From Octopus sinensis (lineage: Eukaryota): a stretch of DNA of 64,000 nt. Location: NCBI RefSeq assembly GCF_006345805.1, contig NW_021833058.1, positions 1 through 64,000 of the forward strand. The letters are read 5' to 3'. The position numbers and the translations under genes are program-made. Below the pieces are notes generated by a model, which ran no database searches, had not been told where the DNA came from, and worked only from the letters and a program-made list of their open reading frames with translations. Of the stretch, positions 5,668-57,785 are shown in pieces; positions within the stretch are counted from its first letter, which is position 1, and the number at the start of each line of letters is the position of its first letter.

Positions 5668-5714
5668 TGTCAAAATATTTACCTCGCTTTGAAACCCCGA
5701 CCTGTTCACTGACA
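5668..5714 (-). ncRNA. Degenerate hammerhead-like motif with G3-C8 core
   Basis: Minus strand: tgtca-GTGAACA-g-gtcg...cgag-GTA-AATATT-T-tgaca. GAA is mutated to GTA in this copy. Confidence 0.4.
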
Positions 5715-5719
5715 AAAAA

Positions 5720-6300
5720 AAAATCCGTAAAACAGTTAGGGTAGGGAGGGGGAAATTTACAATTTTGAAAATTTGATTTTTCAGCATAATCGCAATTTCC
5801 TATATAGAAAAAATAAATAGCAATCCCAACAAAATTTGGAGGAAATTCACCTCCGACACGCTAGAAACAGCAGGTATATGACACGATTTCTGAAAAAAAG
5901 AAATTCCTTTTAAGTTTATATCGAAGATCAGGTTTTTCAATACGCTCATCTCAAGCACAAATTACAAAATAAAAATAGGTCACTTCCATTGGAGTTGAGC
6001 TGTAATTTTGCGCGTGCACACAGCGACAAATAACACAATTCGTACTGAAGTTTCACCTATAGTGTCTGTGTCTGTCTGTGTGCGTGTGTGTGCGCAAAAG
6101 AAGATATTTTTTATATACCTTTCTTCATTCCAAAGGAAGACGAACATGAACAATATTTCCAAAATTCGACTTCACCCATAATTATTACGTCACCAACAAC
6201 AATGTCGGGTGATCGCGATAGACAAACATTTATGAAAATGTACACATACATATTGTATTAAAATAAGCCACAACCAAAACAATTTCATTAAAAGACATCC
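5720..6300 (-). mobile_element. Helitron-like non-autonomous element, diverged inverted partial copy
   Basis: Reverse complement of 5830-6060 aligns with 10920-11130, and of 6221-6270 with 6605-6650. Confidence 0.55.
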
Positions 6301-6655
6301 ATTTATCTATATGTTACGAGGAAATACAGTCAGGTGGGTGCTACTTCTATATGTATGCCATTTTGGGATGGCAAATAAGTCCGTCCTTAATTCGGCAGGC
6401 TACGTCTCCACTTCACAGCTTCCGCTGACAGTGGCATTATCTCTCTCTTTCAATCTCTCATTATAATGTATGGAGACACTATGTTGTCAACATGTTACTA
6501 CTTCCACTAACTTCATCAATATATGATGGAACCTGGATTTCATTTCGTTTTTTTACATACTTTACTATCGATTAAACAAATAATTCCAAACATGGCCTGT
6601 AACGATAATTTCTTTTAATACAATATTTATGCGTACATTTTCATACGTTTCTCTA

Positions 6656-6907
6656 TGTTGTGGTGTCGGTGGAGAGGACGACAGATAAGGGAGGGCGGAA
6701 GTAGGGCTTGCAGGGCGCATGCGCGGCGGGAAGCGGAAGCGGTGAAGCAGCACGCACGTGTGGGATCAACGAAGCCGGCAGTTCGAGCTGAGACGACGAA
6801 GCGACTAGACGTATTGACTTTGGTGAGAGAGATCTGATCTTCGCTGAGGTAAGGCTCGTTGTATTTCCTTCGCTTTTTCTGTTGTCTTCTTCATCCGTCA
6901 CACTACA
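6656..6907 (+). repeat. 5' LTR
   Basis: TGTTGTG...CACTACA termini. 6662-6907 is colinear with 10592-10837 (6 substitutions counted in 246 bp). Confidence 0.92.
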
Positions 6908-6944
6908 AGCTATTTCGGCATATAAAAAAAGAAAAAAACGAACG

Positions 6945-7700
6945 ATGAGCGTCCGTATTTCGCACGAAATGATACAACCGTTCTACGGCGATACGGATGT
7001 AATCGCTTGGTTGAAGAAAGTGAAGTTGGTGGCGAAGCTCCATGGTATAAGTGACCTGGCGAGCTTCATGCCGCTGTACTTGGATGGTCCGGCATTGGCG
7101 TTGTATCTAGAGATGGAGGAGACAGACCAGCTCAGCGCGGAGAAAGTGGAAATCCGGTTGATGGAGGCCTTTGCGGAGGGGATGTTTGAGGCATACGATC
7201 GCCTGGGTAGAACAATATGGACTGGGGAACAGGTGGACGTGTTTGCCAATGAACTTAGGAGATTGGCTAAACTGGCGGGTTATGAGGGAGAGTCGCTGGA
7301 CCGGACGGTTAGGTTGGCGTTCGTGACTGGCTTTCCTAACAACATGTCGGTCGAGCTACAGCAGCTTCCGAATGTTCATGCGATGCCGATGGCGGACATC
7401 ATATCTCGGGCACGCGTATTAGTTTCGTGCAACAGAAGGACGTCGGTAGCAGCGACTGCAACATCGAAAAGTGGCCGAGCTAGGAGCAGCGGAGAGGGGC
7501 CAAAGAAAGAACGTGTGCGACCGTTCAAAGGACAGTGTTTCCGGGGCCAAGGTCCGCACATGGTGCGTGACTGCGAGTCACCCAAGCCTGAGGTGATTTG
7601 CTACCGGTGTCGAGAACCGGGGCACATAGCCAGCGAGTGCCTGCGGGGAAACGGACTAAGGGAGACTACTGCGCCGGTAGTTGTCCCTTCGGATCAGTAG
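6945..7700 (+). CDS. gag: Gag with two zinc knuckles
   Basis: Open frame from MSVRISHEM. CFRGQGPHMVRDC (degenerate) and CYRCREPGHIASEC (CCHC). Confidence 0.88.
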   Translation: MSVRISHEMIQPFYGDTDVIAWLKKVKLVAKLHGISDLASFMPLYLDGPALALYLEMEETDQLSAEKVEIRLMEAFAEGMFEAYDRLGRTIWTGEQVDVFANELRRLAKLAGYEGESLDRTVRLAFVTGFPNNMSVELQQLPNVHAMPMADIISRARVLVSCNRRTSVAATATSKSGRARSSGEGPKKERVRPFKGQCFRGQGPHMVRDCESPKPEVICYRCREPGHIASECLRGNGLRETTAPVVVPSDQ

Positions 7701-7707
7701 AGGCGTG
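7646..7707 (+). promoter_or_regulatory. -1 programmed ribosomal frameshift signal (G GGA AAC plus pseudoknot)
   Basis: The heptamer is in gag frame and the protease is in the -1 frame. Stem 7658-7669/7677-7689; loop tgcgcc can pair with ggcgtg at 7702-7707. Confidence 0.75.
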
Positions 7708-55658: not shown

Positions 55659-55713
55659 GGTGGTGGTAGTAGTAGTAGTAGTGGTAGTAGTGGTGGTGGT
55701 GGTGGTGGTAGTA

Positions 55714-55763
<50 letters not shown>

Positions 55764-55883
55764 TATGAGGGCACTGACGATGATGATCGTAGTGATGGCG
55801 ATGGTACTATTTAGCTTTATTCACTGCAAAAAAAAAACTTTAATGACCTACATCAAATAGAAATAAATATAAGTATTTGTTAC

Positions 55884-55936
<53 letters not shown>

Positions 55937-56205
55937 ACACACATACGCACATACAAGCACGCATAGACGCGTAAATATATAAATAAATAAATAAATATAT
56001 ATATATATATATGTGTATATATATATATATGTATATATATGTGTGTCTTTATATATATATGCGTGTGTATGTGCAAATATATGTATGCGCATATATATAT
56101 ATATTTATATATGTATATATGTATATTAAGTGCGTGTATATATATATATACACACACACATATACATATATATACATATATATATATATGCATATATATA
56201 ATATA

Positions 56206-56245
<40 letters not shown>

Positions 56246-57550
56246 ATACACGGACACATATGTTTATATGTTTATGTGCATGTGAGATATGTGCTTGTGT
56301 ATGTATAAGATGCTCAAACTTCTCCCCTTCTGTTTAACTGTGTAACTTCAATATGTCTGCCAGCTTCCCTTGTCTTACAAGTAAACACCGCCCTGCGTCA
56401 GCCATCGTCATCACCAACTATTCAATAAAAATAATGTCAAAGTTAGCTATAGTTGAACCATAAATCCGCATACAGCCATAATCATGATCAACGACAGAAA
56501 ATCCATATATTGATAGATTCCAAACCCATCACTTCAATAAAACTGCACTAATACGACGTCCTGTCCTCAGGGTGTCACAAAGCCAACTGTGTGCCGTGGA
56601 ATGATGACTTTCACAGAGGCTGTGGAAGAAACGCTTTATTGGATTATTGAAAGCACTTTTAACAAAAAGAAAACTCGGAACAAAAATATTCCTTCAAGAA
56701 TTTTTAACAAACGCAACTGTTTCATACTGATTGTTATTTGAGACAGAGAACAGAGACACAATTTCAGAGTTAACTGGTCTATCGCTGAAAGAAACCAGAT
56801 AATGGTGAAGATGATGATGATGACGACGACGACGACGACGATGATGATGATGTATACATTGATGTATGCTTTGTTTATCAGAAACGTTTAATATTTTAAC
56901 ACTAAGCTGTCACGAATTAAACAAGTCTGAGCTGATCTCCACCTGCCGTCACAAAAAAGAAAAGAAATGTAGCTGTTAAGGTACTTAATCACCTTCACCA
57001 GACGATGCTGACTAAGCTAAAACTTAGAAATAGCTGTCAGTTTTTTTCTTGTGAAAATAAGTGTCATAATTTACTGAAAGATATTGAACAATCCTTGAAT
57101 TCCTGTTTTTTGTATATAAAATGTAGATAATATCATTAAAACACACATATATCTGTTTTTCATACGTGTGCTTGTTTATTTATGATTTAATGGCGTTCCA
57201 GAAAACTCGGATGGTGATGGCTAAAATCGCCTCGCTGCATTGGTGTATGACTGGCTGACCGTCGTAACGTATCCCACAAAACATGTGAAAAGCTGACGGG
57301 GGTCTGGTCTTTTGCTTCTTTTAGAAGAGGCAGGTTTTGCTGGTGAGAAGATCCCTCTGCTACCAACATTCACACCAACAAAGTCTGGAGATGCAGTGGA
57401 TGATGAAGAGTGGGCACACTGTGAGATCATGATTATGGCTGTATGCGGATTTAGGAACTCTGTGACCTCCATAATTGTTGAGGAGGCGCCGCTCTATGTA
57501 GTCCTCCATTTTGAGATTCTTTCTTGTTATTTTGCTTTATCTAAGAAATT

Positions 57551-57785
57551 ATTCTGTTGTGTCTGGGGAGAGTCATTTTCTTTTTGTGCCTTATTATTTA
57601 ACACACTCACCGTTGCGTCTTGCAACCTTTTCAATAGTTTTGACTGTCAAAACTATTGAAAAGGTTGCAAGACGCAACGAAAATTTTAGGACAATAAAAA
57701 TAAGAAAAAAGTGGAAATTTTACCTTTGAATGTGTTAAATAATAAGGCACAAAAAGAGAATGACTCTTCCCAGACACAACAGAAT
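57551..57785. repeat. Nested fold-back: perfect 34-bp hairpin 57611-57679 inside an outer IR 57551-57609 / 57727-57785
   Basis: Arms checked base by base for the inner hairpin. Confidence 0.9.
57645..57693 (+). ncRNA. Ultra-minimal hammerhead motif with U3-A8 core
   Basis: tgtc-aaaa-cta-TTGAAAA-g-gttgc-aagac-gcaac-GAA-AATT-T-tag-gaca. Confidence 0.55.

What the first reader, a model, noticed from the sequence alone, without database searches (positions are those of the whole stretch)
5668..57693. Covariation of the hammerhead 3-8 core pair across dispersed motifs
Seen: C3-G8 (2365, 43763), U3-A8 (53697 UUGAGAA; 57656 UUGAAAA) and G3-C8 (5668 GUGAACA, degenerate copy). Several have an extra G before stem II and a palindromic stem III (AAUU, AAUAUU, AGCGCU, ACAAUUGU). 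Established: 3-8 is a tertiary Watson-Crick pair in the active fold. Inference: a diverse, selected ribozyme repertoire that CUGANGA-based searches would miss.
Basis: partly seen in the sequence, partly recalled or inferred. Interest (0 to 1): 0.72.

Follow-up and report, generated by a model that had tools for sequence, protein, structure and literature searches.

The report
Swapped-core hammerheads of Penelope retrotransposons
The five motifs are copies of five repeat families, four of them the tails of Penelope-type jumping genes, and carry small hammerhead RNA folds whose core pair reads C-G, U-A (both known) or G-C (not found in print); they likely cut the element's own RNA, which is untested.

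Summary
All five motifs exist; three lie on the minus strand. Each belongs to a dispersed repeat family. Four families trace to Penelope-like elements: reverse transcriptase, then GIY-YIG endonuclease, then the hammerhead near the 3' end. The fifth (53697) is a 310-350 nt tandem unit with no ORF found. In an unselected 1 Mb sample, 10 of 12 strict hits pair at 3-8, against about 0.2 paired hits per shuffle. The G3-C8 and U3-A8 (57656) families encode proteins 53% identical and share one ribozyme design, so that swap is between homologues. G3-C8 lies downstream of uninterrupted ORFs of up to 1042 codons. U3-A8, the extra base and the palindromic stem III were published in 2014. I found no natural G3-C8 in print, but could not read two key papers. 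This scan noted the same pattern in two other genomes. Cleavage is untested. Verdict: new variant of a known kind.

The parts
2365..2429 (+). Type I hammerhead fold, C3-G8, U-U at the base of stem II, long stem II, palindromic stem III; 3' end of a Penelope-like element
   Evidence: 32 of 32 copies covering the core are C3-G8. Same motif lies downstream of GIY-YIG and RT frames in L145, L282, L306.
5668..5714 (-). Damaged copy of the G3-C8 minimal hammerhead (extra G, 5-bp stem II, AAUAUU stem III, U17)
   Evidence: (29 of 35 copies G3-C8). Family lies downstream of RT-GIY-YIG in L311, L315, L361-L363.
43763..43813 (-). Type I hammerhead fold, C3-G8, U-U at the base of stem II, 6-bp stem I, 4-bp stem III; one arm of a head-to-head pair
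   Evidence: An endonuclease C-terminus lies upstream on the same strand in L155 and L323.
43809..43859 (+). Inverted second copy of the 43763 motif, stem I cut short at the junction
53697..53739 (-). U3-A8 hammerhead fold with damaged stem II, in an old 310-350 nt tandem unit; no ORF found
54002..54048 (-). Decayed upstream tandem copy of the 53697 unit, 311 nt away
57645..57693 (+). U3-A8 minimal hammerhead (extra G, 5-bp stem II, AAUU stem III, U17, bulged stem I) at the centre of an inverted pair; 3' end of a Penelope-like element
   Evidence: (43 of 43 copies U3-A8). RT thumb, Zn linker and GIY-YIG frames end about 600-750 nt upstream in L333, L339, L347, L358 and others.
18207..18250 (-). 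Sixth family: hammerhead-like fold with junction CUUGAAGA (U3-G8 wobble, or C3-G8 with one inserted base) and AGCGCU stem III
   Evidence: (51 matches, 40 of 489 candidates scored). No ORF link tested.
19242..19285 (+). Inverted second copy of the sixth family, junction CAUGAAGA

Best explanation
The motifs are type I hammerhead folds at the 3' ends of Penelope-like retroelement families, each family with its own 3-8 pair (C-G, U-A or G-C), and they likely cleave element RNA slowly, as dimers or with protein help. Shown: the repeat families, the ORF link for four of five, the fold, and the association of positions 3 and 8 between families. Inferred: the pair is kept because the active fold needs a Watson-Crick pair there, so selection acted on the few master elements that spread. 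Inferred: in the G3-C8 and 57656 families stem III cannot close in one molecule, so two ribozymes would pair through the palindrome. Inferred: most genomic motifs, including those in the window, are 5'-truncated dead copies made from uncut RNA, because they span the cut site. Cleavage itself is untested.
For: Families of at least 40 places each. ORF links. G3-C8 and U3-A8 proteins are 52.7% identical over 349 aa, E 1e-125, and neither matches the two C3-G8 proteins at E 0.01; their ribozymes share A7, the extra G, a GUYGC/GCRAC stem II, an AU palindrome and U17. Strict hits in 1 Mb: C-G 6, U-A 3, G-C 1, mismatch 2, against shuffle means 0.05, 0.10, 0.00 and 0.65. 16 of 18 strict clusters paired, permutation mean 8.66, p 0.0002. 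G3 and C8 are both kept in 14 of 16 copies found in 15 of 20 endonuclease-selected loci, while loop II varies. No change at G3 or C8 reaches 3% in contigs of four runs with four organism labels. The 2365 lineage shows two-sided changes in stems I, II and III. Stem III allows 1 pair (G3-C8) or 0 pairs (57656) in a monomer, against 6 and 4 in a dimer. None of 14 unselected G3-C8 copies starts at the cut site; 12 start 40-63 nt upstream. PMC4209133 describes the same design; PMC11167929 shows partial rescue by C3G/G8C in a Penelope hammerhead.
Against: No cleavage data. C3-A8 in 9 of 34 copies of family 53697, not clustered on a poorly resolved tree (8 changes against 8.8 shuffled). The sixth family may carry U3-G8. 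The clusters are not phylogenetically independent and 4 of the 18 were selected by my own searches; the 53697 cluster was labelled U-A from all copies although its descriptor hits were 2 U-A, 3 C-A, 1 A-U. The modelled dimer is less stable than two lowest-energy monomers for G3-C8 (+2.2 kcal/mol), 57656 (+6.6) and 2365 (+11.6), and the G3-C8 monomer prefers a G3-U17 pair. GIY-YIG hits fall just under Pfam's cut-off and the long ORFs gave no RT or GIY-YIG hit. Family 53697 has no ORF link.
Confidence: 0.75

Rival explanations
1. The folds are kept for a structural role (protein binding, promoter or intron region, positioning of reverse transcription) and no longer cut at a useful rate; the 3-8 pair only stabilises the fold.
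For: Copies span the cut site and none of 14 starts at it. PMC11167929 passages: hammerhead mutants did not affect insertion in vitro and no RNA-seq reads ended at the cut site. PMC4209133: very low in vitro activity of minimal hammerheads. C3-A8 copies are common in one family.
Against: The 3-8 pair forms in the active conformation (PMC3884650 passages). All invariant catalytic letters and a non-G position 17 are kept across unrelated families.
Confidence: 0.17
2. The copies are a host-selected ribozyme repertoire that regulates host transcripts.
For: Thousands of copies. Core letters deviate less than flanks in all five families, for example 0.033 against 0.059 and 0.067 against 0.137.
Against: Intact-core counts are mostly near neutral expectation: 28 of 32 (24.9), 22 of 35 (19.1), 39 of 56 (41.1), 9 of 34 (7.8), 37 of 43 (30.0). 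Flank rates include subfamily differences. Two of the five window copies are broken. Head-to-head copies would pair with each other.
Confidence: 0.05
3. The motifs are chance matches in AT-rich, palindrome-rich DNA.
For: The relaxed descriptor gives about 5 hits per shuffled Mb, and three window hits look like chance.
Against: Strict paired hits 10 against about 0.2; 23 against 1 in reversed DNA; same place relative to the ORF in four families.
Confidence: 0.02

Closest known systems
Minimal type I hammerheads in Penelope pseudo-LTRs (Cervera and de la Pena 2014, PMC4209133; main text parts 1-3 of 4 and supplement parts 1-2 of 3 read)
   Same: Type I fold, unpaired base between A9 and stem II, palindromic stem III, position at the 3' end of RT-GIY-YIG elements, opposite-strand pairs, mostly solitary truncated copies, U3-A8 variant (about 1,300 hits in Schistosoma mansoni; one listed core is UUGAAAA, as in 57656).
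   Different: No G3 core among the representative motifs of their Fig. S3 as held in text; no cephalopod listed. Here G3-C8 is a whole family with uninterrupted ORFs and a U3-A8 sister family.
Natural core variants (Perreault et al. 2011, PMC3088659; passages read)
   Same: U3-A8 covariation, U10.1-U11.1 mismatch, weak stems III, insertions near C3.
   Different: The passages name only U3-A8 as the natural covariation; Fig. 5 itself was not seen.
Engineered C3G/G8C double mutant (PMC11167929, passages read; Martick and Scott 2006, cited there, not read)
   Same: Same G3-C8 pair; partial rescue of cleavage, also in the Anolis Poseidon hammerhead, which needed protein.
   Different: Made at the bench; here the pair occurs naturally in a spreading element.
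Neptune/Nematis Penelope-like elements (Craig et al. 2021, PMC8557442; passages read)
   Same: C-terminal GIY-YIG, CX2-5CxxC linker in the G3-C8 and 57656 families, inverted 5'-truncated copies, optional 3' tail, ends beside (TA)n.
   Different: Clade not placed on a tree with reference elements. The 2365 lineage has a CxC-x5-C linker instead.
Non-LTR retrozymes (PMC7229834, passages read; bioRxiv 10.64898/2026.07.22.740005, part 1 of 5 read)
   Same: Family 53697: tandem unit of 310-350 nt with a type I hammerhead and no ORF found.
   Different: Only two-unit tandems seen, copies old, core U3-A8, circular RNA untested.

Membership tests
Type I hammerhead ribozyme | Invariant core U4 G5 A6 A9, G12 A13 A14, A15.1-U16.1, H17 | tested here: met
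   Majority of copies in all five families; the window copy at 5668 lacks A13.
Type I hammerhead ribozyme | Stems I and II flanking the core | tested here: met
   two-sided changes in the 2365 lineage. Stem I of 57656 is weak; the 2365 window copy folds otherwise in the lowest-energy model.
Type I hammerhead ribozyme | Watson-Crick pair between 3 and 8 | tested here: met
   Majority state in all five families; 16 of 18 strict clusters. Exceptions: C3-A8 in 9 of 34 copies of 53697, and the sixth family.
Type I hammerhead ribozyme | Match to an Rfam hammerhead model | tested here: inconclusive
   None among the 150 rows shown of 294 at E up to 10; 144 weaker rows not shown.
Type I hammerhead ribozyme | Loop I-loop II tertiary contact | not tested
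   Not modelled; PMC4209133 describes loop 1 of the minimal motifs as poorly defined.
Type I hammerhead ribozyme | Site-specific self-cleavage after position 17 | not testable with these tools
   Needs an in vitro assay or raw RNA reads; only contigs were offered.
Penelope minimal hammerhead (PMC4209133) | Unpaired base between A9 and 10.1, with G10.1-C11.1 | tested here: inconclusive
   Met in 5668 and 57656; 53697 has G-C without the extra base; 2365 and 43763 have U-U.
Penelope minimal hammerhead (PMC4209133) | Short palindromic stem III | tested here: met
   AAUAUU, AAUU, ACAAUUGU, ACAUCGAUGU; 43763 has a 4-bp stem with an 8-nt loop.
Penelope-like element with C-terminal endonuclease | One ORF with RT followed by GIY-YIG, upstream of the motif on the same strand | tested here: met
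   5668: L361, 1042-codon frame, GIY-YIG E 0.00037, Atlas neighbours with RVT_1 or HTH_animal at 0.92-0.95. 2365. 57656. 43763: endonuclease end only. Not found for 53697.
Penelope-like element with C-terminal endonuclease | Inverted 5'-truncated copies and an optional 3' tail | tested here: met
   Opposite-strand neighbours; two 3' end points about 80 nt apart in the G3-C8 family.
Penelope-like element with C-terminal endonuclease | Direct-repeat pseudo-LTR upstream of the ORF | tested here: not met
   None of L361-L364 or L315 has a same-strand upstream copy within the stretch; L315, L363 and L364 have an inverted one.
Neptune/Nematis clades | CX2-5CxxC linker before the endonuclease | tested here: met
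   C-x3-C-x2-C in L361, C-x4-C-x2-C in L339. The 2365 lineage has C-x-C-x5-C, which does not fit literally.
Neptune/Nematis clades | Placement in an RT tree with reference elements | not tested
   No reference sequences were fetched.
Non-LTR retrozyme (family 53697 only) | Tandem unit of 150-450 bp without ORF | tested here: inconclusive
   Same-strand repeats 310-348 nt apart in the window and in 4 of 5 loci checked; no ORF in four 7-kb stretches; only two-unit arrays.
Non-LTR retrozyme (family 53697 only) | Expressed as circular RNA | not testable with these tools
   No raw RNA reads.

The most novel reading that the evidence does not exclude
A protein-coding Penelope family with thousands of copies relies on a naturally inverted G3-C8 catalytic core, so far known only as a partly rescued laboratory mutant, and its sister family uses U3-A8 in the same scaffold: a natural double transversion in the active site, which shows that cleavage stays under selection in Penelope elements although it is dispensable for insertion in vitro.
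Probability: 0.35. Interest if true: 0.62.

Novelty: new variant of a known kind. Interest (0 to 1): 0.42.

Why it matters
What hammerheads do in Penelope elements is open: they cut poorly in vitro, and in the one reconstituted element cutting was not needed for insertion (PMC11167929). A pair that matters in the active fold, swapped between sister families, argues that the active fold is still selected and supplies matched natural constructs for testing it. In practice, hammerhead searches should leave 3 and 8 free but paired: 4 of 10 strict paired hits in the unselected sample were not C-G. The principle is not new, since U3-A8 was reported in 2011 and 2014. The addition is one further natural pair, G-C.

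Tried and rejected
U4 left free: 9 hits against about 9.1 expected; two are decayed copies of a C3-G8 family. A3-U8 class: 3 relaxed hits, 0 strict; the A3-U8 look-alikes at 1979 and 4779 have a weak stem I and no copy outside the window among the loci held, so I treat them as chance. C3-A8 as a subfamily of 53697: not supported, tree poorly resolved. Avoidance of pairing between positions 3 and 17: C3 with A17 in 8 of 12 clusters, U3 with A17 in 1 of 6, Fisher p 0.13, not significant. Footprint of cleavage in copy ends: none; a larger sample chosen by downstream sequence could not be read, so this rests on 14 copies. Expression: no RNA holder listed. MAFFT misaligned stem II between the two sister families, so no covariance model was built. 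Rfam, Pfam on whole ORFs and PDB sequences gave nothing useful. ORF search for 53697 in four 7-kb stretches found none. Literature searches for a natural G3-C8: 'G3-C8' (one paper, an engineered variant), 'C3G'+'G8C' (46), 'G3C8' (81), 'GUGA' (82), 'G3 and C8' (107), Terminon+covariation (118); none showed one in listings or the passages read. Lunse et al. 2017, Przybilski and Hammann 2007 and Hammann et al. 2012 are not held; the first could already list G3-C8.
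Full report
Setting. The window is contig C9529 of a 2.72-Gb animal genome, 38% G+C and rich in microsatellites. The repeat landscape looks cephalopod to me; that is recalled, not tested.

Observation. All five motifs are present, three on the minus strand; coordinates are in the parts list. The window copies at 5668 and 53697 are damaged. No hammerhead family was among the 150 Rfam rows shown of 294.

Families. Each motif retrieved at least 40 places in the genome; only 40 candidates are scored per search, out of 912 (2365), 1177 (5668), 119 (43763), 170 (53697) and 1219 (57656). Among copies covering the core the 3-8 state was C-G in 32 of 32 (2365), G-C in 29 of 35 (5668), C-G in 43 of 56 with the other 13 aligned with a gap at position 3, mostly at inverted junctions (43763), U-A in 23 and C-A in 8 of 34 (53697), and U-A in 43 of 43 (57656) (duplicate loci and ten near-identical segmental copies were left out beforehand). 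Opposite-strand neighbours are frequent. The G3-C8 family occurred in 3 of 100 unselected 10-kb stretches, which would scale to several thousand copies, very roughly.

Chance. I fetched 100 stretches of 10 kb at round coordinates and scanned them with positions 3, 4, 7 and 8 free. With U4 there were 23 hits against 1 in reversed DNA. Under strict stems there were 12: C-G 6, U-A 3, G-C 1, A-U 0, wobble 0, mismatch 2, against means of 0.05, 0.10, 0.00, 0.07, 0.12 and 0.65 in 40 local dinucleotide shuffles. Without U4 there were 9 hits against about 9.1 expected, so that relaxation adds nothing. Over all 1.95 Mb then held, 40 clusters emerged, 18 strict; 16 of the 18 pair at 3-8 (permutation mean 8.66, p 0.0002). 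Four of the 18 were sought by me. Without them 12 of 14 pair (my count). The clusters share ancestry to an unknown degree, so the p value overstates independence.

Link to Penelope-like elements. Family 2365 lies about 1 kb downstream of a GIY-YIG frame in L145 (Pfam E 0.00024, just under the cut-off). A protein search gave 150 scored matches of 18,755 candidates; 14 of the 30 loci fetched hold the motif, and L282 and L306 carry open RT-linker-endonuclease frames of over 640 codons. Across this lineage stems I, II and III change on both sides. Family 43763 has an endonuclease C-terminus 2-2.5 kb upstream in L155 and L323 (E 1e-6 to the L145 peptide). Family 57656 has RT thumb, C-x4-C-x2-C linker and GIY-YIG upstream in L333, L339, L347, L358 and others. 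The G3-C8 family is collinear with RT and endonuclease in L311 and L315, and L361 holds an uninterrupted frame of 1042 codons ending about 0.9 kb upstream of an intact G3-C8 motif. Whole-ORF Pfam scans found no RT or GIY-YIG; RT identity rests on the visible YxDD motif and on Atlas neighbours with RVT_1 or HTH_animal at 0.92-0.95. Family 53697 is different: its downstream flank runs into its own upstream flank, giving units 310-348 nt apart, and no ORF was found in four 7-kb stretches. It resembles a non-LTR retrozyme or a solo pseudo-LTR.

The swap is between homologues. The G3-C8 and 57656 proteins are 52.7% identical over 349 residues and do not match the two C3-G8 proteins at E 0.01. Their ribozymes share A7, the extra G, a GUYGC/GCRAC stem II with one two-sided change, an AU-only palindrome and U17. 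So U-A and G-C alternate in one scaffold, which needs two transversions. Direction and intermediates are unknown. In 20 loci chosen by endonuclease score (65-96% identity), 16 motif copies were found in 15 loci; 14 keep G3 and C8, one has G3-U8 and one has lost G3, while loop II takes at least four forms. In contigs of four public runs with four organism labels no change at G3 or C8 reached 3%.

Results against a strict rule. C3-A8 occurs in 9 of 34 copies of 53697 in the tree set and does not cluster (8 changes against 8.8 shuffled; 2 of 31 branches well supported). No copy there has G8, so CpG decay does not explain it and it stays unexplained. In a second small family, CUGAUGA, CUGAUAA and CUGACAA occur side by side, which fits CpG decay. 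A sixth family in the window has the junction CUUGANGA, either a U3-G8 wobble with a mismatch closing stem I or C3-G8 with one inserted base and a 5-bp stem I. Intact-core counts are near neutral expectation in four families and above it in 57656 (37 against 30, no formal test).

Mechanism. The 3-8 pair forms in the active hammerhead conformation (PMC3884650, passages). In Penelope elements the short palindromic stem III is thought to force dimer formation, and cleavage is slow (PMC4209133; PMC6765202, passages and second part of section 11). My models agree that stem III cannot close in a G3-C8 or 57656 monomer, but the dimer is favoured over two lowest-energy monomers only for the 53697 and 43763 motifs, and G3 can pair with U17 in the ground state. 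Protein help is therefore plausible, as shown for the Anolis element, where C3G/G8C partly restored cleavage (PMC11167929, passages). Genomic copies span the cut site: of 14 unselected G3-C8 copies none starts at it and 12 start 40-63 nt upstream, at the 5' edge of the ribozyme; the few unselected copies of 57656 and 43763 mostly do the same. I infer that uncut RNA is the template, that this edge is probably a transcription start or splice junction, and that selection on the core acts in master elements.

Novelty. U3-A8 in nature: PMC3088659 (passages) and, in Penelope elements, PMC4209133, which also describes the extra base and the palindrome. U10.1-U11.1: PMC3088659 and PMC7229834 (passages). 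No G3 core appears in the Fig. S3 list of PMC4209133 as held in text. Six searches found no natural G3-C8, but Lunse et al. 2017 and Przybilski and Hammann 2007 are not held, and figures were not visible. Two earlier notes of this scan report the same three pairs in other genomes; they are unchecked and not independent support.

Verdict. It is the known Penelope hammerhead with one apparently unreported core pair. New variant of a known kind; interest 0.42.

Noticed in passing
window 18207-18250 (-) and 19242-19285 (+): Sixth hammerhead-like family, junction CUUGANGA: U3-G8 or an inserted base next to C3. 51 matches; no change reaching 4% at the C, the U or G8 in two large runs, and a subfamily differs at position 7. 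Insertions near C3 are described as rare in PMC3088659.
   Followed up: partly
L313:6580-6681 (G3-C8 family): A-to-G differences at 6633, 6641, 6652, 6672 and 6681 are far more frequent in one or both of the runs guessed to be RNA than in the two large runs (6672: 5% and 17% against 0.04%). This would fit A-to-I editing of inverted-repeat duplexes, but the runs are contigs, the RNA label is a guess and the individuals differ.
   Followed up: no
L313 about 6520-6560, upstream of the G3-C8 motif: A branch-point-like CUAAC, pyrimidine tract and AG end about 21 nt before the core, near where short copies begin; PMC4209133 places an intron end at stem I in Drosophila virilis Penelope.
   Followed up: partly
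window 53670-53680 (-); 57656 family downstream flank: A G-GUGAGU splice-donor-like sequence follows the ribozyme in the 53697 and 57656 families.
   Followed up: no
window 2798-3883 (+): Tc1/IS630-type DDE transposase frame of 362 codons (DDE_3, E 7e-08).
   Followed up: no
window 6792-10542 (+): LTR retroelement frames: zinc knuckle, RT, RNase H, integrase core.
   Followed up: no
window 20379-21218 (+): Reverse transcriptase fragment (RVT_1, E 5e-08).
   Followed up: no
window 1960-2205 and 4770-5005 (+): A direct repeat of about 250 nt, about 95% identical over the part compared, brackets the 2365 motif and the transposase; no copy among the other loci held.
   Followed up: partly
window 39294-39365 (+): 3' half of another hammerhead of the 2365 lineage, 5' core missing.
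   Followed up: no
window 32717-33643, 36493-36860, 38048-38506, 47242-47613; 60050-64000: A 184-nt repeat in tandem arrays of up to five units, and a 489-492 nt tandem array at the contig end.
   Followed up: no
window 5300-5475: A long near-perfect palindrome beside the G3-C8 copy, part of another repeat.
   Followed up: no
L315:981-1871 (-) and 5466-5579: A mariner transposase inserted in the 3' UTR of a G3-C8 element, and an inverted pair of another C3-G8 hammerhead nested in its ORF.
   Followed up: no
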